Source: Octopus vulgaris
Taxonomy: Eukaryota
Reading direction: 5' to 3'
DNA: 64,000 nucleotides
Assembly: GCA_951406725.2 (NCBI GenBank)
Contig: OX597815.1
Span: forward strand, 45,694,001-45,758,000
The notes under the pieces: generated by a model
The model's input: only the letters and a program-made list of their open reading frames with translations
Told to the model about the DNA's origin: nothing
Database searches by the model: none
Shown here: positions 12,615 to 63,769 of the stretch, piece by piece
How positions within the stretch are numbered: the first letter of the stretch is position 1
Layout of the letters: each line of letters starts with the position of its first letter
Program-made: the position numbers and the translations under genes

Positions 12615-13668
12615 CCCTACGTGGGCCAGTGGGGTTGGAATTACACAAAATCCACTAGGGTCCCAGGGGACCACCTTATATTTTTATGTATTTCTGCACT
12701 AACCATAAAGTAATAATTATTTAATCTTGTATAAATGTGTGTGTGCTTGATACAGAACAAGAAATTTAGCATCTTATAGGCATATATTTATAATTATTAG
12801 CATTTAATGGAGGGGAATTAAAATATAATTTATTGACTGAAAAAACTCTTTATTGACTGAAGTCAACATTTTTTTTTATAGTTTTATAAACTATATATAT
12901 AGTACTATATATAAAATGAAGCAAAATTATTTAGTATATCAATTCATACCAGTACAATTATGAAGAAAATTGACTTATAGTTCAGAATATCTGAGAAAAG
13001 AACAGAAGAAAATAATTTCTCAGAAGGCCAATGGGAACCAGTTGGACCCCAGTGACCATATTTTATGCTATAACATCCATATGACTGGAAATTCTTAACT
13101 CAAAATTTGTATGTACATAATCTTTTACTTGTTTCAGTCATTTGACTGCAGCCATGCTGGAGCACTGCCTTTAGTCAAGCAAATCGCCCCTGGGACATAT
13201 TCTTTGTAAACCTAGTACTTATTCTGTTGGTCTGTTTTGCCAAACCGCTAAGTGACGGGGACATAAACACACCTATCGGTTGTCAAGCAATGCTAGGGGG
13301 ACAAACATAGACACACAATTAAACACACATACATATATATATATATACATATATACGACGGGCTTCTTTCAGTTTTCATCTACCAAATCCACTCACAAGG
13401 CTTTGGTCTGCCTGAGGCTATAGTAGAAGACATTTGCCCAAGATATTATGCAATGGGACTGAACCCAGAACCATGTAGTTTGTAAGCAATCTACTTACCG
13501 CACAGCCACTCCTGCGCCTATAAAACGTAAAGACAGACGAAATACAGTTAAGCATTTCACCTGGGGCGCTGACATTTCTGCCAGCTCACTGACTTAAACT
13601 ATTGACAATAAAAGTAATGAGATATAAAATCATTTAAATAAAATATGTAAACGTTGGCCCATGAAAGG
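12615..13668. mobile_element. piggyBac-type non-autonomous element (TTAA TSD), interrupted by SINEs at about 13121-13600
   Basis: ttaa|ccctacgtgggcca ... tggcccatgaaagg|ttaa; 11/14 TIR match. Confidence 0.7.
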
Positions 13669-14610: not shown

Positions 14611-14807
14611 TTTAGAAGAAGGAAAAAAACAAAACAATAATGATATTAACAATGATTTCTACAAATTCTAGCTTAGAAGATTTCAGTTCATTCTGTTTCT
14701 TCTCAGTTCACTTAGCAGTTATCTCTTGTTACTGTATAGGAATGAGATATTCCTAAAAGAATAGTCTTTTGTTCAAGACAGATTAATCTCTTTACTTATT
14801 TGGCGTT

Positions 14808-15200
14808 ACTCTTTTACGCTTTTACTTGTTTCAGTCATTTGACTGTGGCCATGCTGGAGCACCACCTTTAGTTGAGCAAATCAACCCCAGGACTTATTAT
14901 TCTTTGTAAGCCTAGTACTTATTCTATCTGTCTGTTTTGCTGAACTGCTAAGTTACAGGGATGTAAACACGCCAGCATCGGTTGTCAAGCCATGTTGGGG
15001 GGACAAACACAGACACACAAACATATACTCACACACATACATATATATATGACAGGCTTCTTTCAGTTTCCGTCTACCAAATCCACTCTCAAGGCTTTGG
15101 TCGGCCTGAGGCTATAGTAGAAGACACTTGCCCAAGGTGCTATGCAGTGGGACTGAACCTAGAACCATGTGGTTTGTAAGCAAGCTACTTACCACACAGA
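14808..15200 (-). mobile_element. SINE family A, full-length
   Basis: Complete reverse-complement copy. Confidence 0.85.
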
Positions 15201-15799
15201 CACATTATTTAAATTATTAAAAAAAAACAGATAATTTTTCTGTTGACATATGTAATCCATCTCCATTAACAATCTCTAAGTTTACATGAAATGCCACAAA
15301 ACTCTGAATATTTCATTTTAGTATTCACTCCCCTTATAAATTAATATATGTTATATATTATAACCATTTCTGCTGTTTACCTTCATCAGCTGCTATCTGA
15401 TGTATTTCTCAAAATCTGTCTGAACTAAACTCAGCACAACGCAATACTTACCACTACCACTGCCACTACCAGTCCCAGTAGCAACAGCAACCACCACCAT
15501 GACCACCACTGCCACTACTGCAACTACCATCACTGCCACCGCTGCTGCCACCACCACCACCACCACCACCACCACTCTCACTGTCACCACATCTCCAACA
15601 ACCCCAACTTCTCTTATCTTTTAACATAAGTCTTTATCTTTTACCTTTTTTTAGTCATTAGACTGTGGCCATGCTGGGGCACCGCCTTAAAGAATTTTTA
15701 CTCAAATGTATCAACACAAGTACTTAATTTGTATAAACTTGATACTTATTCTATCAGCCTCTTTTACTGAACTGCTAAGTTAGGGAGAAGTAAAACACT

Positions 15800-20601: not shown

Positions 20602-21030
20602 AGGCACAGGAGTGGCTGTGAGGTAAGTAGCTATAGGCGCAGAAGTGGCTGTGTGGTAAGTAGCTTGTTTACCAACCACATGGTTCCGGGTTCAGTCCCA
20701 CTGCGTGGCACCTTGGGCAAGTGTCTTCTACTATAGCCTTGGGCTGACCAAAGCCTTGTGAGTGGATTTGGTAGATGGAAACTGAAAGAAGTCCATCGTA
20801 TATATGTATGTATGTGTGTGTTTATGTTTGTGTGTCTGTGTTTGTTCCCCAACATTGCTTGACAACCGATGGTGGTGTGTTTACGTCCCCGTAACTTAGC
20901 AGTTCGGGAAAAGAGACTGATAAAATAAGTACTGGGCTTACAAAGAATAAGTCCTGGGGTCGATTTGCTTGACTAAAGGCGGTGCTCCAGCATGGCCACA
21001 GTCAAATGACTGAATCAAGTAAAAGAGTAT
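20602..21030 (+). mobile_element. SINE family A, full-length, with duplicated first about 30 nt of the head
   Basis: aggcacaggagtggctgtgaggtaagtagct followed by ataggcgcagaagtggctgtgtggtaagtagct. Confidence 0.85.
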
Positions 21031-22252: not shown

Positions 22253-22461
22253 TCTCTTTTACTTGTTTCAGTCATTTGACTGTGGCAATGCTGGAGCACC
22301 GCCTTTTAGTCGAGCAAATCGACCCCAGGACTTATTCTTTGTAAGCCTAGTACTTATTCTATCGGTCTCTTTTGCCGAACCCCTAAGTTACGGGGTCGTA
22401 AACACACCACCATCGGTTGTCAAGCGATGTTGGGGGACAAACACAGACACAAACATATACA

Positions 22462-22524
<63 letters not shown>

Positions 22525-22687
22525 TACGATGGGCTTCTTTCAGTTTCCGTCTACCAAATCCACTCACAAGGCTTTGGTCGGCCTGAGGCTACAGTAGAAG
22601 ACACTTGCCCAAGGTGCCATGCAGTGGGACTGAACCCGGAACCATGTGGTTTGTAAGCAAGCTACTTACCACACAGTCACTCCTACA
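22253..22687 (-). mobile_element. SINE family A, young full-length copy
   Basis: Complete copy retaining CpGs. Confidence 0.85.
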
Positions 22688-22709
22688 CCTCAGATCAATC
22701 TAAATACTT

Positions 22710-24579: not shown

Positions 24580-25998
24580 CATATGATGATGCACCATCAT
24601 ATGATGTAGTCAAGCACTGGCATCACCAGTTCAAATGCTCCTATTCCTGGACAACCACATTCCGCCATTGATACTCTTTTACTTACTCTACTCTTTTACT
24701 TGTTTCAGTCATTTGATTGCGGCCATGCTGGAGCACCGCCTTTAGTCGAGGAAATCGACCCTGGGACTTATTCTTTGTAAGCCCAGTACTTATTCTATCG
24801 GTCTCTTTTGCCGAACTGCTAAGTGACGGGGACGTAAACACACCAGCATCGGTTGTCAAGCAATGCTAGGGAGACAAACACAGGCTCACAAACACACACA
24901 CACATACATATATATATATACATATATACGACAGGCTTCTTTCAGTTTCGGTCTACCAAATCCACTCACAAGGCATTGGTCAGCCCGGGGCTATAGCAGA
25001 AGACACTTGCCCAAGGTGCCACGCAGTGGGACTGAACCCGGAACCATGTGGTTGGTTAGCAAGCTACTTACCACATCCATATGACAACATCCATAAAATA
25101 AAAGCTGCCATTTTGGATGTTGCCTATGACAACATCCATAAAATAAAAGCTGCCATTTTGGAGAATCACCACATAACTATTCAGTGACTAGTCCAAGAAG
25201 TGAAGATAAGTGTAGGGTCTGTGGAAAAAATCATTCATTAGATGCTCACATCTTTTGAGAAGCAGGAACGAGTCAGTTGCTCCCAGGCTCTTTTGGCAAT
25301 GTACCAAGAAAATGAGAAGGATTTTTTCAGCAGACTTATCACACAAGATGAAAGATGGGTCCATCACTATGGTCCTGAGACTAAAGTCCAGTCAAAGCAA
25401 TGGAAGCATGATGACTCACCACCTCCAAAGAAAACTTGTGTCCAGCCCTCATCAGGCAAGGTAATGCGCACAGTTTTTTGGGACCTGTGTGGAGTAGTGA
25501 TGATGGATTTTCTGGCAAAAGGCACCATAATTATGCTTCTATTATTATGGTTCTCTGCTGCAGAAAATGTGGGATGCCATCAAAACAGAGAGGCAGGGCA
25601 TGCTGATCAAAAGAGTGCTCCTCCTCCAAGACAACACCCCAGTTCACAATGCACATTTTGCCCAGATGAAAGCATACTCCTGCAGCTATGAAATCCTTCC
25701 TCATCCCCCTTTTTCTCCTGACCTTGCACCATTTGACTTTCATCTCTTTCCAACATGAAGTCTTTTTTGAAAGGGAACCACTTTTCAGATGATGATGAGC
25801 TTATTTCTGAAGTAAAGTCTTGGCTCCAATCACAACCTACTGATTTCTACAGATGAGGCCTTCACAGCTGCATAAAGCAATGGGAAAAGTTGTCACATTG
25901 GTGGTGGCTATGTAGAGAAGGGTTAATAATTATGCCAAGTTTAGTTTATCCCAGTCCTTGAGAAGTGAGTCAGGGGAATCTTTAATGAACAATCCTTG
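24580..25998 (+). mobile_element. Decayed mariner (DD34D-type) transposon interrupted by a family A SINE (24672-25073)
   Basis: YDDAPSYDVVKHWHHQFK (HTH); LITQDERWVHHY, KVMRTVFWD, LLQDNTPVH, HPPFSPDLAPFDFHLF motifs; right end ttaatgaacaatccttg|ta. Confidence 0.9.
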
Positions 25999-37981: not shown

Positions 37982-38498
37982 AGCGAGAGGCCAAAATGTA
38001 TGAAGATAAACACAAAACAAAAAGAAACAGCATAGAAGTAGGAAGTCAATCACTTGATAGAAAGTCAAGTGAACTATAGAGAAAAATCAAAGTGAAGTAA
38101 AACTGAAGAAGTGGGCCTATTTAGAAGAATTGGTTATATACAACAGAAATGGAAGGAGATTAAAGAGAATGGGCTAGTGAGAGAAGTTATAGGGAAAAGG
38201 TCACTTGAGAGAAACAGTGTAAAGTAAGACTAAGAGACATCTGATATACAAAAATCTGTCTATCTGTCTGTCTCCCTTCCCCTGTTTCTACATATTATTT
38301 AAAGCAATTATAAAGAATACAGAGACTGGTACATCATAAAAAAAAAATACACTCACTCTATAGATATATATACTGTAACAAAGTTTATTTGCATACATAA
38401 CATGGCAGTCCTGCATAGGATTATGTTACTACTTTTTAACCCCAGGAAAACATCTTTTCCAGCTGGTTATTGACACTTGATCTGAGTCTGAGACATAC

Positions 38499-38629
38499 TG
38501 TAAGTAAGGAGGCTTACTACACCCTTCTAATTGTTAGCAGTACCAGCAGACCAATAGTTTCTGGGTAATTTCCCCGTCTTCAGTACTGGACAGCCACCTG
38601 GCTAGAGACAGCAGCCACCTGACCTTACA
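38499..38629 (-). mobile_element. 131-bp element with TGTAAG...CTTACA ends carrying a hammerhead ribozyme
   Basis: Inverted ends atactgtaag (38495-38504) / cttacagtat (38624-38633); internal direct repeat cagccacctg x2. Confidence 0.6.
38543..38589 (-). ncRNA. Type I hammerhead ribozyme, canonical core
   Basis: Minus: CCAGTA-CTGAAGA-cGGG gaaatta CCCa-GAAAC-tattg-GTC-TGCTGG; 6-bp stem I, GUC cleavage triplet. Confidence 0.8.
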
Positions 38630-39184
38630 GTATATATTTATCAAAGTGTACATGTATATATAATTCAGTTACAGAAAACAGGCTAAAATGAAATTTGTGG
38701 GTTACCTGTTTAGAAAGGCAGTCTGAATAAGAACTGATTCAGGGTAGAGGGGATCCTTTAGGTCAACTAACATAGTGCAACTTCTCAAGTATTGGTGGCA
38801 TAATAAAATGCATTGAGTTCACACTGTAAGACATAATCTATACTAGGGTGTATTTTTTGTCTTATGTTTAAGATGACATGGACTGGGACAGCTTATGTTG
38901 GCAGTGATACATGGACCTAAGAATGATGATGATGATGATGAAATACATGTATGTATCTAGGTACAAATATTGTTGACCATGGTCAGCCCCAACCAAAATG
39001 GATTTGATACTTATATCAGCAGCTATGGCTTAATCCCCTTATTTCATGATAAGAGCTACATGCCCAAAATGGCAAAAGACTAAAATAAATTCCAGTTGTT
39101 TTATAAACCACCCCATAAACTTTTTACAGTGTTATGGCTTCTTTTATCCAAATTTCAAATTTACAATACTTTATGCATTTTCTC

Positions 39185-48700: not shown

Positions 48701-49185
48701 TAAAAGTTGCATATTTCCTGCTGAATGTTTTCAAAATTTTAAATTCCCTGACAAATTTTTAATTCTTAACTTTTTTCGAATTTTTTTTCAATCTACATGG
48801 AAAAATATGGAGATCAAGAATATGGAAAAAACCCAAAAGAACTGCATGCACACACGCATCAGTCGCAGCCTCCCACCTCATAGTCACATGTGTTGATAAT
48901 GACATGCCCTACGTCTTCCACCAGATCATCCTACCATGGCTTTGCTCTCATTTGATGCAGCAGCTATGACATGGAAGTGACCTCATGTCAGGCCCCACAC
49001 CAGATGACTGGACATGATTAAGGAAGATCTTCAGAGGCTCGATGTCACCTTGGAGAATGCAGAGGGGCTGGCATGGGACTGTCAGTGATGGAGAGTACTG
49101 GTGGACCTGGTTGGCTCTATGCATAATGGCATCTCTGGAACCGCTAACCTGGGATGACCCCAACCCCATAAAGCAAGCAAGTAAG

Positions 49186-49471
49186 TATACTTTACTTATG
49201 GGTTAAGCAAGCTACCATTGGTTTCATATTGAGAGAGGTATATCTCTTAGCAATTATCAAAACTTTTTGCATGGGATATTGGTGTTCATCTCTATTTGGA
49301 TGAAAACGTGTTGGCGTTCATCATCATCTTGGATGAACACACCTTGCTGTTTTCATCTAAGATGAAGATGAACACCAATGTCCCATGCAAAAAGGTTTGA
49401 TAATTGCTAAGAGATATACCTCTCTTGACATGAAACCAATGGTAGCTTGGCTAACCCATAAGTAAAGAATA
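49186..49471. repeat. Foldback inverted repeat, about 120-bp arms, about 40-bp spacer
   Basis: ctttacttatgggtta.caagctaccattggtttcat...gatgaaaac / gttttcatc...atgaaaccaatggtagcttggctaacccataagtaaag. Confidence 0.9.
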
Positions 49472-51329
49472 TTTATCCACTAATGTGGTGTTGAGTACTG
49501 ATTCTCACTGTTTGATATTAACATACCCTGCACCCTACACACAAACACACACACTATTGGTAGATACCGTTCTACACGAATATGTTTATACACACACATA
49601 TACACACACTACATACATATTTATCCCTGTCTTTTGATATCTGTGTATGCTTCTGATATTAAATGCATGTGTGTACTTCATTTATTCATTTTTTTAAATT
49701 AAGGGTTTTTCACATTACCAATCAGTCTTTTACCTCTGTTTAGAATATTACACTTCCCGGATTCAATTGTATTTCACAACCTTTCTGAGTATTATCTTTC
49801 AGATACAAGGGCTTCAATTCTGGTTATTCTTGTAGTTTTTATTGCATACAAGAATGATAAGAATCAAAATTATGATGTAGATTTTGTTTCCACATTTGTT
49901 TATCCCTGAACTTTAAATTTTCTGGCTGTTGTATTTCATATCACCTGGTTTCTTTCAGAAACCAGCTTATATTTCAGCGGTGAAGTCTGCTGTATGTTAC
50001 TTGGATGGGTTAACCAGTTCTTTGAGTTTTGCATTACATTTGGTGTAGTGTAGCTTTCATGGATAATTTTCTAGTCCTTTTGCAAAAATTCTCTGTTTCT
50101 TGTAGTGCCATCACCTCTGTTACACCACAGCCACTACCACTACCACCACTGCCACTGCTACCAACATTATGACTGCTGCTGCTGCCGCCACAACCACCAC
50201 CGCTGCCGCAACCACCACCGCTGCCGCCACCACCACCGCTGCCGCCACCACCACCGCTGCCACCACCGTCACCGCCACCACAACCACCATTGCTGTTAAC
50301 AGCTAGTACGTTTGATGATTAGCCACTTAAGCAATTCTCTTATTCTTAACCTTTCTTTCAAGTGAATATTCAACTGATCATAATATTTAACTTAATTCCT
50401 TCTGTAATGCAAAAAATATACATGAATTTTTATTGACTGACAAGGCCAGTACAGTTGATAATCTTTGATCCAAATTTCCAAAATCAGAATTAAAAAAAAA
50501 ACTTTAAAAAATTGAATTCATTTTGAGTGAGAGAGACACCACAAATAGAAAATTCTAAAAGTGCTCTGGAAGTTTTTTTCTAGAATTGTGCAGCTGCTGC
50601 CAGTCATGCACTAAACTCTTTAGCTGCTGAGAGCAATGTCACCCTCTCTGGGTTGTGTAAAAGTGTAATAACTAGATTTATTTTTGGTGAAATGTGAAAT
50701 ACTGTCTTCAAAGTGAAACTATTATATGTTGTATGAAACTGGTCTAGAGTTAAGATTGTATAAAACTAGCATCACTATTTATGCATAAGCTATATCATCA
50801 ACCTCATCCTCATCATCATCATCATAATCATTTAATGTCCACTTTTCTGAGCATTCATGAGTCTGATGAAATTTGTTGAGACAGATATTCTAAGGTCAGT
50901 TGTCCATCTTGACACCTGTTTCCAAGCAGTGTAATATATCCATGGTCAGGCACATCTTTCATGGAAGACAGGAAACAAGCAATTTACAATCACCATGTGA
51001 TGTTAAGGCATAGGTACATACACACACACTCATATGATGGCTTTTCTCAACCTCTGTCTTGCAGATCTACTCTCAAGGCTTTGGTTGGCTTGCGGCTGTA
51101 GTAGGGGTCACTTGTCCAAAGCGTTGCACAGTAGGACTGAGCCCTAGACCACATGGTTAGGGAGCAAGCTTCTTAACCAGTTTACAGTAGTGGTTCATTT
51201 GGTTGCCTGCGCGTGGCAATGGTAATTGCACTGATTGAGGTCAGCACTCAGTGTGAGATAATATTTGGCGTATATTTATGTCAACCACTTGTCAACCGGT
51301 GCAAGTACTGTTTATTTACCTAAACTATA

Positions 51330-53072: not shown

Positions 53073-54380
53073 TTAACCATACAAGACTACACCTATGCAA
53101 TCACAGAATGTTATATATGACTGTATGGTAAGAAGCTTGCTTCCCAACCACATGGTTCTGAGTTCAGTCCCACTGTGTGGCACCTTGGGAAAGTGTCTTC
53201 TACTATAGCCTCGAGCCGACCAAAGTCTTGTGAGTGGACTTGGTAGACGGACACTGAAAGAAGTCTATTGTGTGTGTGTGAGTGTGTGTGTCTTTGTGTC
53301 TGTGTTTGTCCCCCCATCATCCCTTGATGACCAGTGTTGGTGTGTTTGAGTCCCTGTAACTTGGCAGTTTAGCAAAGAGGCCAATAGAATAAGTACTAGG
53401 ACTTAAACAGTAAGTTTGACAAAAGCACTTCAAGGCAGTGCTCTGGCATAGCCACAATAGGGTGGCTGAAACAAATAAAAGAACACACACACTCACACAC
53501 ATACACATGTAGTATATGTTTTAATGATTACTGTTGATTTCTGTAACAGGGAAAAAATTATTTAATTGCTAAGAGCAATGTTAAAAACCATGGAGAATGA
53601 ATTTCCTTTATCAAATGTCATAGACCAAATGTCAAAGAAGCATTTATATTCTATAGCAAAGAATCAGCTTGAATTTAATTTCACATTTTGGTAAGTTTAT
53701 AAGTTACTGTCATGTAAGTGTAGATATATGTGTGCATTAATTTTAGTTGCTGAAATTTCACCATCATAAAAAAAAAAATTGCTCATTAATAAGTATATTT
53801 CTTCATGCTAAATGAACCTTTGAAAAAAAAAAAAGATTCATTCAATAAATATACTTTTTTTAAGAGCATTGTAGTTTGCTTGAAGCATTGTAGCATAGAA
53901 ATAGAAAATGAAGGAAAAGAGATAAGGAAAGCTTCTAACAATGCAAAGACACATCTTCAGAAGAAAGCAGTCCAAGATATGTGTGTTTACATAGATTTCA
54001 CTGTGACTATGACGAACACACGCCACCGCTACTGCTACACCATGGGAAAATATATTAGAATGACCACAACCAACAGTTGGAGAGTTGATGCTGCTGCTAA
54101 TCCAAACACCTAGCAGTTTAAAGTAATGAATTCTATGTAAACATGCATTTCTTTGACTGCTTTCTTCTGAAGCAAAAGAGACCAATAGAATAAGTATCAG
54201 GCTTAAAAAAAGTACTGGGTTTGATTCATTCCACTAAATATTCTTCAAGGCAGTACCACAGCATGGCTGCAGTCTAATGAGTGAAACAAGTAAAAGATAA
54301 AAGGTATGTGTGTGTGTGTGTGCATGTGAGTAACTTTGTCTTTACTTCAAGTGATTGTTATATAAGAGACATCACCATTA

Positions 54381-54795
54381 TAGGCGCAGGAGTGGCTGTG
54401 TGGTAAGTAGCCTGCTTACCAATCACAAAGCTCTGGGTTCAGTCTCACTGTGTGGCATCTTGGGCAAGTGTCTTCTACTATAGCCTCAGGCCAACCAAAA
54501 CCTTGTGAGTGGATTTAGTAGATGGAAACTAAAAGAAGCCCATCGTATATATATGTATATATGTGTGTGTGTGTGTGTTTGTATGTTTGTGTATCTGCGT
54601 TTGTCCCCCTAGCATTGCTTGACAACCGATGCTGGTGTGTTTATGTCCCCGTCACTTAGCGGTTCAGCAAAAGAGACTGATAAAATAAGTACTAGGCTTA
54701 CAAAGAATAAGTCCTGGGGTCGATTTGCTCGACTAAAGGCAGTGCTCCAGCATGGCTGCAGTCAAATGACTGAAACAAGTAAAAGAGTAAAAGAG
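54381..54795 (+). mobile_element. SINE family A, full-length
   Basis: Complete head-to-tail copy; similar one at 53120-53480. Confidence 0.85.
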
Positions 54796-60560: not shown

Positions 60561-61258
60561 TCGAATCCAGCAATCCTACACAAGTGTACCCACTCCCGAC
60601 TTTGTTTCCTCATAACTTCTAGGAAAATGGATATTTTTTTTAATGAAATTTTTTATATGTTCCAGATTACGATTATATCGGAGTTGAATGTGAAGAATTT
60701 TTTTCCGAGAGTATGGTGAGGAGTTTCAGAAAATTCACACGAGTTGGCTTTGTTTCCTTATAACTTTAAGAAAAATGGATATATTCCAATGAAATTTTCT
60801 AAAAATACCTTTACAGAGAGTGTAGAATATAATCATATCGGAATTTGATATGAAAACGAAATTGGGGGACTCTTATACATACATACAGACACACATCACA
60901 ATTTTTTCCATTTTGTAGATATATATGACGTGTGTCAGTATGCATGTGTACAAGGCCACCAATTTTTTTACATATGAAATTTTGATATAATCATAATCTG
61001 TACATTCTCTAAGATATTTGTAGAACATTTCATAAAAAATTACCCATTTTTCTGAAAGTTATGAGGAAACAAAGCCAACGTATGTGAAACTCCCCACCCC
61101 ACCCTCGGAAAATATTTTTCACCACAAATTCCGATACAACCGGAATCTATATCATCTGAAGCGAATATATAGAAAATTTCTTTAAAAAATATCCAGTTTT
61201 CTGGAAGTTATAAGGTAACACAGTCGGCGGGGGCACTCGTGTAGGTTATGCCTCGAAT
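60561..61258. mobile_element. Foldback-type element with about 300-bp modular inverted arms
   Basis: cctacacaagtgtaccc..ccgactttgtttcctcataacttc / gaagttataaggtaacacagtcgg..gggcactcgtgtagg; each arm has two ctttgtttcc..ataactt..aaatggata modules. Confidence 0.75.
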
Positions 61259-63537: not shown

Positions 63538-63603
63538 GGTCCCGGGTTGATTCGGGGTTAACCACAGTAAATAAGGTACTCAATACATAGCAGAGTAAAA
63601 TTA

Positions 63604-63729
63604 ATTTATTATATAGAAGGAGCTTCTACAGGACTAGAACTGTTTCATTCAAGAGAAATCTTCAGGAAGCTTCCTGAAGATTTCTCTTGAATGAAACAGT
63701 TCTAGTCCTGTAGAAGCTCCTTCTATATA

Positions 63730-63735
<6 letters not shown>
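63604..63735. repeat. Perfect 132-bp palindrome without spacer, at the end of a short insert in (TA)n
   Basis: Centre aag|ctt at 63669/63670; arms match base for base from 63604 to 63735. Confidence 0.95.

Positions 63736-63769
<34 letters not shown>

What the first reader, a model, noticed from the sequence alone, without database searches (positions are those of the whole stretch)
38495..38633. 131-bp TG...CA mini-element built around a canonical hammerhead (retrozyme-like)
Seen: a complete core on the minus strand (CTGAAGA, GAAAC, GTC) with a 6-bp stem I, inside a unit bounded by tgtaag...cttaca; the inverted match extends to 10 bp, or reads as TA|CTGTAAG...CTTACAG|TA. Known: plant LTR retrozymes have hammerhead-bearing LTRs with TG...CA ends and give circular RNAs, whereas described animal retrozymes are mostly tandem non-LTR units. 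Inference: this is either a solo LTR of an animal LTR-type retrozyme, or a TA-targeting MITE or PLE end carrying a ribozyme. No clean 4-6 bp TSD is visible (atac/gtat), so the class is unresolved.
Basis: partly seen in the sequence, partly recalled or inferred. Interest (0 to 1): 0.75.

Follow-up and report, generated by a model that had tools for sequence, protein, structure and literature searches.

The report
Old Penelope-borne retrozyme, variant hammerhead
This is a decayed, truncated copy of a 357-base non-coding jumping repeat that carries a hammerhead-shaped (predicted self-cutting) RNA motif and was likely pasted around the genome by Penelope-type retrotransposon enzymes; it is a known kind of element, not the new 131-base LTR or MITE first proposed.

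Summary
The hammerhead motif is real; the 131-bp TG...CA unit is not. The window holds a 5'-truncated copy (38371/38380-38648, minus strand, about 90% to the family majority) of a dispersed, old repeat with a 357-bp monomer in short tandems. The tgtaag...cttaca ends are the base of an internal RNA hairpin, shortened by a 4-bp deletion. Across 73 insertion sites, 5' ends are scattered, 73 of 94 outer 3' ends fall at two points about 59 bp apart, often before (TA)n/(CA)n, and 21 sites are head-to-head inversions, none tail-to-tail: the published Penelope-like footprint. Stem I co-varies and a collinear sister family keeps it with different letters. The family core is CCGANGA (U4C); the window's 'canonical' CUGA is most likely CpG decay. 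No parent element, cleavage or circle was shown; no young copies were found. Verdict: animal non-LTR retrozyme / non-autonomous Penelope-like element with a variant core. This scan has reported the same kind several times elsewhere in this genome, for younger families.

The parts
38371..38648 (-). Whole insertion: 5'-truncated copy of the 357-bp monomer (majority positions 90 to 357 plus 4-15 of the next unit); 3' end at 38380 by BLAST, 38371 by pairwise alignment with a 2-bp gap
   Evidence: 23 differences in 264 compared columns, 9 of them in CpG columns
38543..38589 (-). Type I hammerhead motif: stem I 38589-38584 with 38548-38543; core 38583-38577; stem II 3 bp; GAAA 38561-38558; stem III 2 bp plus a U-G pair; predicted cut after C 38549
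   Evidence: cleavage itself untested
38582..38582 (-). Core position 4: U here, C in most family copies; likely CpG deamination after insertion
38495..38633 (-).
38628..38629 (-). 4-bp deletion relative to the family majority that creates the tgtaag/cttaca look
38371..38395 (-). 3' end at the main fixed end point E1 (…GGCAAATAAACTTT…), predicted start of reverse transcription, 168 bases downstream of the predicted cut
38358..38370 (.). Short TA-rich alternating tract at the 3' junction (target remnant)
38649..38664 (.). TA-rich alternating tract at the 5' junction; no target-site duplication with the other flank

Best explanation
This is a dead, 5'-truncated copy of an old protein-free 357-bp repeat family with a variant type I hammerhead motif (an animal non-LTR retrozyme), likely inserted by a Penelope-like element's reverse transcriptase/endonuclease acting in trans. 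Shown: period, scattered 5' ends, two fixed 3' ends, TA/CA-microsatellite junctions, head-to-head inversions, covarying stem I, C at core position 4 in all subfamilies. Inferred: a tandem copy was transcribed; the PLE protein nicked an AT-rich site and started reverse transcription inside the RNA at one of two sites (E1, E2, about 59 bases apart = the PLE 'tail'); extension from both nicked strands on the same template gave the head-to-head inversions; the template was continuous across the hammerhead site (uncut multimer or re-ligated circle). The ribozyme would have cut slowly and probably as a dimer; the window copy is predicted not to fold into it well any more.
For: Monomer 357 bp; 37 of 73 sites span more than one monomer, up to 704 bp, and one array of about 4 units. 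73 of 94 outer 3' ends in two windows covering 43 of 357 positions (windows chosen); 5' ends spread over all 12 bins. 41 of 73 fixed 3' ends are followed by an alternating purine-pyrimidine tract, against 12 of 52 outer 5' ends and 8% background. 21 of 73 sites are head-to-head inversions, 0 tail-to-tail; 9 of 21 pair E1 with E2, 0 pair E2 with E2. Craig 2021 (PMC8557442, passages) lists 5' truncation, partial tandems, inverted truncated copy, one-sided tail and microsatellite bias as PLE features; Frangieh 2024 (PMC11167929, abstract and passages) shows two internal RT start sites, both-strand nicking at AT-rich DNA. The genome holds RT+GIY-YIG elements; one (L158) has the same head-to-head insertion in (TA)n and a CCGAAGA hammerhead. 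Arms within one site are more alike than across sites (median 95th percentile; 29 of 36 ordered pairs at or above the 80th). 23 of 28 distinct segments found with the 3' half alone cross the cut site, 1 stops at it. Stem I: A-U 39/U-A 28 and C-G 28/U-A 25/U-G 15 of 73 rows; swap follows the tree (4 changes vs 25.8 shuffled). Nine non-CpG core positions 94% conserved vs 88% elsewhere (161/10000), position 7 only 60% (48 rows not picked by a core pattern). Majority monomer as a circle -125 kcal/mol, z -6.3.
Against: No autonomous parent: none of 32 GIY-YIG loci tested shares sequence with the monomer (the one 43-bp hit was a neighbouring sister repeat); only 25 of 150 scored hits of 6136 candidates were fetched, plus 7 wider stretches. 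Rfam has no match. Stem II is weak (72% of cells paired) and lacks G10.1-C11.1; U4C is reported to lower activity considerably in vitro (PMC3088659, passage). Stem III is not formed in monomer folds (probability 0.01 or less), and stem I of the window copy has probability 0.17. 21 of 94 3' ends lie elsewhere; 3 of 16 multi-arm sites disagree at the stem I marker. The stem I covariation stems from few independent events. Cleavage, transcription and circles are untested.
Confidence: 0.85

Rival explanations
1. The copies are only the clipped terminal repeats (pLTRs) of an extinct autonomous Penelope-like element whose coding part I did not find.
For: Same footprint is expected; Li et al. 2026 (10.64898/2026.07.22.740005, parts 1-3 of 5 read) derive retrozymes from pLTRs; the PLE search was partial.
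Against: Homology among loci drops to zero outside the monomer; upstream of the unit start lies the previous monomer's end in 37 of 73 sites, never a shared unique sequence; two full periods in L022 and about 4 units in L165.
Confidence: 0.09
2. The hammerhead shape was kept as a binding or folding signal for the PLE protein and no longer cut once position 4 became C; the family spread through uncut tandem transcripts. (A variant of the best explanation; it concerns catalysis only.)
For: U4C in all subfamilies; weak stem II; no pile-up of 5' ends at the cut site; in the anole PLE, cleavage is not needed for insertion in vitro (PMC11167929).
Against: Catalytic positions stay more conserved than the rest while position 7 is free, as expected under selection for catalysis; U4C supports viroid infectivity in vivo (PMC3088659); a stem II base mismatch is known in an active axolotl motif (PMC7229834).
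Confidence: 0.3
3. Solo LTR of an animal LTR-type retrozyme.
For: TG...CA letters at 38499 and 38629.
Against: Ends are internal to a 357-bp monomer and arise from a 4-bp deletion; type I not type III motif; no TSD; no direct pair around an internal region in 73 sites.
Confidence: 0.01
4. TA-targeting MITE with 8-10-bp TIRs.
For: 10-bp inverted match; TA-rich surroundings.
Against: No copy begins and ends at these repeats as a unit; 5' ends are random; tandem and inverted arrays.
Confidence: 0.01

Closest known systems
Metazoan non-LTR retrozymes (Cervera and de la Pena 2020, PMC7229834; passages and section 14 seen), e.g. the 350-390-bp mussel repeats and axolotl HHR_Amex2
   Same: No ORF, 357-bp monomer, type I hammerhead once per unit, short stem III with near-palindromic loop, GC under 50%, strongly self-paired predicted fold, no LTR/PBS/PPT, mismatch at the base of stem II as in HHR_Amex2
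   Different: Core position 4 is C; mostly 0.5-2 units per site, with inversions; old and apparently dead; cleavage, expression and circles not shown
Endonuclease-bearing Penelope-like elements (Craig 2021, PMC8557442, passages; Frangieh 2024, PMC11167929, abstract and passages)
   Same: 5' truncation, partial tandems, head-to-head inverted truncated copy, two fixed 3' ends with a one-sided tail, AT-rich/microsatellite targets, hammerhead upstream of the 3' end
   Different: No RT or GIY-YIG coding sequence; tail about 59 bp rather than 30-40; no parent element identified
Vertebrate retrozymes as non-autonomous PLE derivatives (Li, Clavereau, Pollet 2026, 10.64898/2026.07.22.740005; parts 1-3 of 5; supplements closed)
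   Same: Solo monomers and short tandems; PLE co-occurrence
   Different: Their link rests on co-occurrence and pLTR homology; here it rests on insertion footprints, and pLTR homology was not found
[quoted passage not shown]
   Same: Variable base after A9, palindromic stem III loop, core variants, opposite-strand pairs 100-700 bp apart
   Different: No G10.1-C11.1; short stem II and long extended stem I instead of long stem II and short stem I
Plant LTR retrozymes (from PMC7229834 and the Li preprint, passages)
   Same: Non-coding, hammerhead-bearing
   Different: Type III motif in LTRs, PBS, PPT and 4-bp TSD; none present here

Membership tests
Plant-type LTR retrozyme | Two direct LTRs with fixed ends around an internal region | tested here: not met
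   no fixed 131-bp ends, no direct pair around unique sequence in 73 sites
Plant-type LTR retrozyme | Type III hammerhead | tested here: not met
   stem I is the open stem (type I)
Plant-type LTR retrozyme | 4-bp TSD | tested here: not met
   window flanks; other loci not scored one by one
MITE | Terminal inverted repeats at fixed element ends | tested here: not met
   inverted repeat lies at majority positions 106-245 of 357
Animal non-LTR retrozyme | 150-450-bp non-coding monomer in tandem | tested here: met
   357 bp; 37 of 73 sites exceed one unit; up to about 4 units
Animal non-LTR retrozyme | Type I hammerhead in each unit with conserved core | tested here: met
   with the U4C change and no G10.1-C11.1; Rfam negative
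Animal non-LTR retrozyme | Highly self-paired monomer | tested here: met
   majority circle z -6.3, 0 of 100 shuffles; prediction only
Animal non-LTR retrozyme | Self-cleavage | not testable with these tools
   needs in vitro assay
Animal non-LTR retrozyme | Abundant circular RNA | tested here: inconclusive
   no RNA holder on record; contigs cannot tell a circle from a tandem joint
Penelope-like element (autonomous) | RT plus GIY-YIG ORF | tested here: not met
   no shared sequence beyond the monomer; no match to 32 PLE loci
Penelope-like insertion footprint | 5' truncation, partial tandem, head-to-head inverted copy | tested here: met
   21 of 73 head-to-head, 0 tail-to-tail
Penelope-like insertion footprint | Optional one-sided tail from two RT start sites | tested here: met
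   E1 53 and E2 20 of 94 ends; 9 E1+E2, 0 E2+E2 of 21 inversions
Penelope-like insertion footprint | AT-rich or microsatellite target | tested here: met
   41 of 73 vs 8% background
Penelope-like insertion footprint | Sequence shared with the pLTR of a named autonomous partner | tested here: inconclusive
   none among 32 loci; search partial

The most novel reading that the evidence does not exclude
A retrozyme lineage that replaced the conserved U4 of the hammerhead core with C before it radiated, kept stem I by compensatory change through several subfamilies, and was written into the genome by a PLE protein priming from both nicked strands at two fixed internal sites of one RNA circle. With its canonical-core sister family it forms a natural paired test of whether cutting and circularisation are needed for retrozyme mobility.
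Probability: 0.3. Interest if true: 0.55.

Novelty: new variant of a known kind. Interest (0 to 1): 0.33.

Why it matters
It removes the claim of an animal LTR-type retrozyme or ribozyme MITE. What remains is modest: insertion footprints that tie a protein-free retrozyme to Penelope-like machinery, a link that the papers read here support only by co-occurrence and pLTR homology, and a family-wide U4C core next to a canonical-core sister family, which makes 'is cleavage needed for spreading?' testable. It also warns that a canonical-looking CUGA in an old genomic copy can be a CpG decay product. The family is old (best identity between sites 90%), so younger families in this genome are better experimental material.

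Tried and rejected
Rfam scans: no hammerhead family at gathering score over the window or at E<=10 over 38300-38800. LTR and MITE readings rejected. A U4 subfamily rejected: U is scattered on the tree (20 changes for 25 U copies; shuffled mean 21.2; 309 of 1000). A linear cleaved monomer as main template is disfavoured (1 of 28 segments stops at the cut site; best-scoring hits only). Autonomous parent: 32 GIY-YIG loci compared, none homologous; the abundant 781-aa element has an unrelated U3-A8 motif. Expression: no RNA holder listed; four runs guessed to be RNA, laid as contigs on another copy, gave thin cover and a 328+28 'goes back' joint equal to the 356-357-bp tandem junction, which genomic tandems explain as well. 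Whether the window's insertion is present or empty in other runs stays open. Young copies: three DNA searches gave best non-self identities of 82-87% (best 40 candidates scored each). Print: 'retrozyme'+'octopus' 3 papers, none on this; 'hammerhead'+'U4C' 1 paper; 'Penelope-like'+'octopus'+'hammerhead' 1 work; subscription papers, Repbase/Dfam and the preprint's supplements were not searchable, so prior annotation cannot be excluded. Earlier scan notes by sequence: no look-alike for this copy or the 63540-63740 element.

Full report
Observation. The minus strand at 38589-38543 reads CCAGTA CTGAAGA CGGGGAAATTACCCA GAAAC TATTG GTC TGCTGG: a type I hammerhead layout with a 6-bp stem I, a 3-bp stem II and a very short stem III. 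My descriptor found two such places in the window against 0.05 per window in 60 Markov controls. Rfam does not recognise it. The 10-bp inverted match around it is real, and the 151-nt region folds with z -2.7.

It is a repeat, but not a 131-bp one. The 139-bp query gave 43 matches in the 2.8-Gb genome (128 candidates, 40 scored). The window copy covers majority positions 90 to the unit end (38648 to 38380/38371). The inverted repeat is the basal stem of a long hairpin that extends stem I (14 bp in the majority); a 4-bp deletion between 38629 and 38628 gives the tgtaag/cttaca look, seen in 4 of the first 30 loci. LTR and MITE readings therefore fail. Copy number is a lower bound: 76 exact matches to an intact-core pattern, 71 of this family after dropping 5 rows of other families (hand count); 1253-1629 first-look candidates for monomer-length queries. 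The family is old: nearest-neighbour identity between sites has median 85%, maximum 90%.

Insertion anatomy. I mapped 73 distinct sites, all found by similarity or pattern searches and so biased to well-kept copies. 5' ends are spread over the whole monomer. Of 94 outer 3' ends, 53 lie at E1 (positions 345-14) and 20 at E2 (55-70); these windows were drawn after seeing the first data. 41 of those 73 ends run into (TA)n, (CA)n or similar tracts, against 12 of 52 outer 5' ends and 8% background. 37 sites exceed one monomer, up to 704 bp, and one array holds about four units. 21 sites are head-to-head inversions with both 3' ends outward and none is tail-to-tail; 9 of 21 pair E1 with E2, none E2 with E2. 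Craig et al. 2021 (PMC8557442, passages) give this list of features for Penelope-like elements, and Frangieh et al. 2024 (PMC11167929, abstract and passages) show that a PLE protein nicks both strands of AT-rich DNA and starts reverse transcription at two internal sites whose spacing is the tail. Arms at one site resemble each other more than arms at other sites (median 95th percentile; 29 of 36 ordered pairs at or above the 80th; stem I marker agrees in 13 of 16 sites), as expected if one RNA served both. With the 3' half alone as query, 23 of 28 distinct segments cross the predicted cut, 1 stops at it and 4 stop short (30 rows, 2 duplicates dropped), so the template was continuous there: an uncut multimer or a re-ligated circle. 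These data do not choose between the two.

The ribozyme motif. In 73 aligned copies 86.6% of cells pair, with 72 double changes (0 of 500 shuffles; slid controls 19-48% paired). Two stem I pairs are swapped in subfamilies, and one swap maps to 4 changes on the tree against 25.8 shuffled, so few independent events. A more abundant sister family (2547 candidates) is collinear over the monomer (score 306, shuffled maximum 176) and has stem I CACACG/CGTGTG, a canonical CTGATGA core, the same GGG/CCC stem II closed by C-A or U-A, and a palindromic TCGA loop 3 (6 of 12 loci matched the motif pattern). In 48 rows not chosen by a core pattern, nine non-CpG core positions are 94% conserved against 88% elsewhere (161 of 10000 random sets), while position 7 is 60%. 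Position 4 is C in 30 and U in 14 of 47 such rows, and 46 against 25 among the 71 pattern hits. CG/TG/CA counts at this site (26/18/10) resemble three other CpG sites, and U is scattered on the tree. So the active lineage had CCGANGA and the window's CUGA is most likely decay. U4C is said to lower activity considerably in vitro yet allow viroid infectivity (PMC3088659, passage). Stem II is weak (72% paired) and lacks G10.1-C11.1; a mismatch there is known in axolotl HHR_Amex2 (PMC7229834, passages). Stem III does not form in monomer folds, and its ACCA(U)UGGU segment is near-palindromic, which fits the dimeric mode described for metazoan type I motifs (PMC4209133, parts 1-2). In the window copy stem I has probability 0.17 against 0.95-1.0 for five of six pairs in the majority.

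Partner. The genome is rich in GIY-YIG elements (150 scored of 6136 candidates; 16 with a 781-aa frame), RT plus C-terminal GIY-YIG by Pfam. None of 32 loci shares sequence with the monomer. One, L158, sits head-to-head in (TA)n with a CCGAAGA hammerhead about 135 bases from its end: the same footprint and the same core variant, but no homology. The partner is unnamed.

Expression. No RNA holder is on record and contigs were uninformative; nothing is concluded.

Comparison and novelty. It works like, and on every testable feature belongs to, the animal non-LTR retrozymes (PMC7229834, passages and section 14), whose PLE link is argued in Li et al. 2026 (parts 1-3 of 5; supplements closed). The variant features are the family-wide U4C core and the clear PLE footprint. 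Searches found no paper on this family, but repeat libraries and subscription papers were not searchable. Earlier notes of this scan describe the same kind, including a young 359-nt CCGAUGA family, elsewhere in this genome; they call the host octopus-like, which I did not test. I reached my reading before opening them.

Verdict. Real motif, wrong boundaries; dead copy of an old PLE-mobilised retrozyme with a variant core. Confidence 0.85; interest 0.33.

Noticed in passing
window 63540-63735: Perfect 132-bp palindrome (63604-63735) plus a tail of about 65 bp on one side, in (TA)n; at least 40 genomic sites are 100% identical over 101 bp with the same centre (444 candidates), and 8 of 8 inspected show palindrome plus one-sided tail. 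It carries a hammerhead-like core on both strands (CTGAAGA, GAAAC, GTA; 6-bp stem I). A very young PLE-footprint mini-element that seems to move as a fixed foldback unit; better material than the finding itself.
   Followed up: partly
L158:7078-7312; L179-L190: Sister retrozyme family, collinear with this one, 89-92% identity among copies, canonical CTGATGA core, fully different stem I, ends in (TA)n at the E2-equivalent point.
   Followed up: partly
L152-L156 (e.g. L152:2405-6086): Young two-frame RT+GIY-YIG element with a 781-aa frame (16 of 150 scored hits), with a U3-A8 hammerhead variant downstream.
   Followed up: partly
L158:3300-6480: Penelope-like element inserted head-to-head in (TA)n with a CCGAAGA (U4C) hammerhead near each 3' end.
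   Followed up: partly
L131:160-340: Small element in (TA)n with a CCGACGA hammerhead core closed by a stem I of about 40 bp.
   Followed up: no
L013/L014 and L016 (G000 C8, 6 kb apart): Two 338-bp arms at L013 are 100% identical in inverted orientation although 14% from the majority, and nearly match an arm 6 kb away: recent local duplication, gene conversion or an assembly effect.
   Followed up: no
G000 C9:64074772, C12:41104797, C18:31627568, C18:49814142, C27:15987282: Five canonical-core motifs of other families share the GAAACCATTGGTC half.
   Followed up: no
window 13118-13523, 14806-15203, 20632-21029, 22254-22690, 24689-25075, 54379-54789: Dispersed repeat of about 400 bp with many copies in the window.
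   Followed up: no
window 49182-49475 and 60575-61245: Imperfect palindromes (83% and 72%), possibly older foldback insertions.
   Followed up: no
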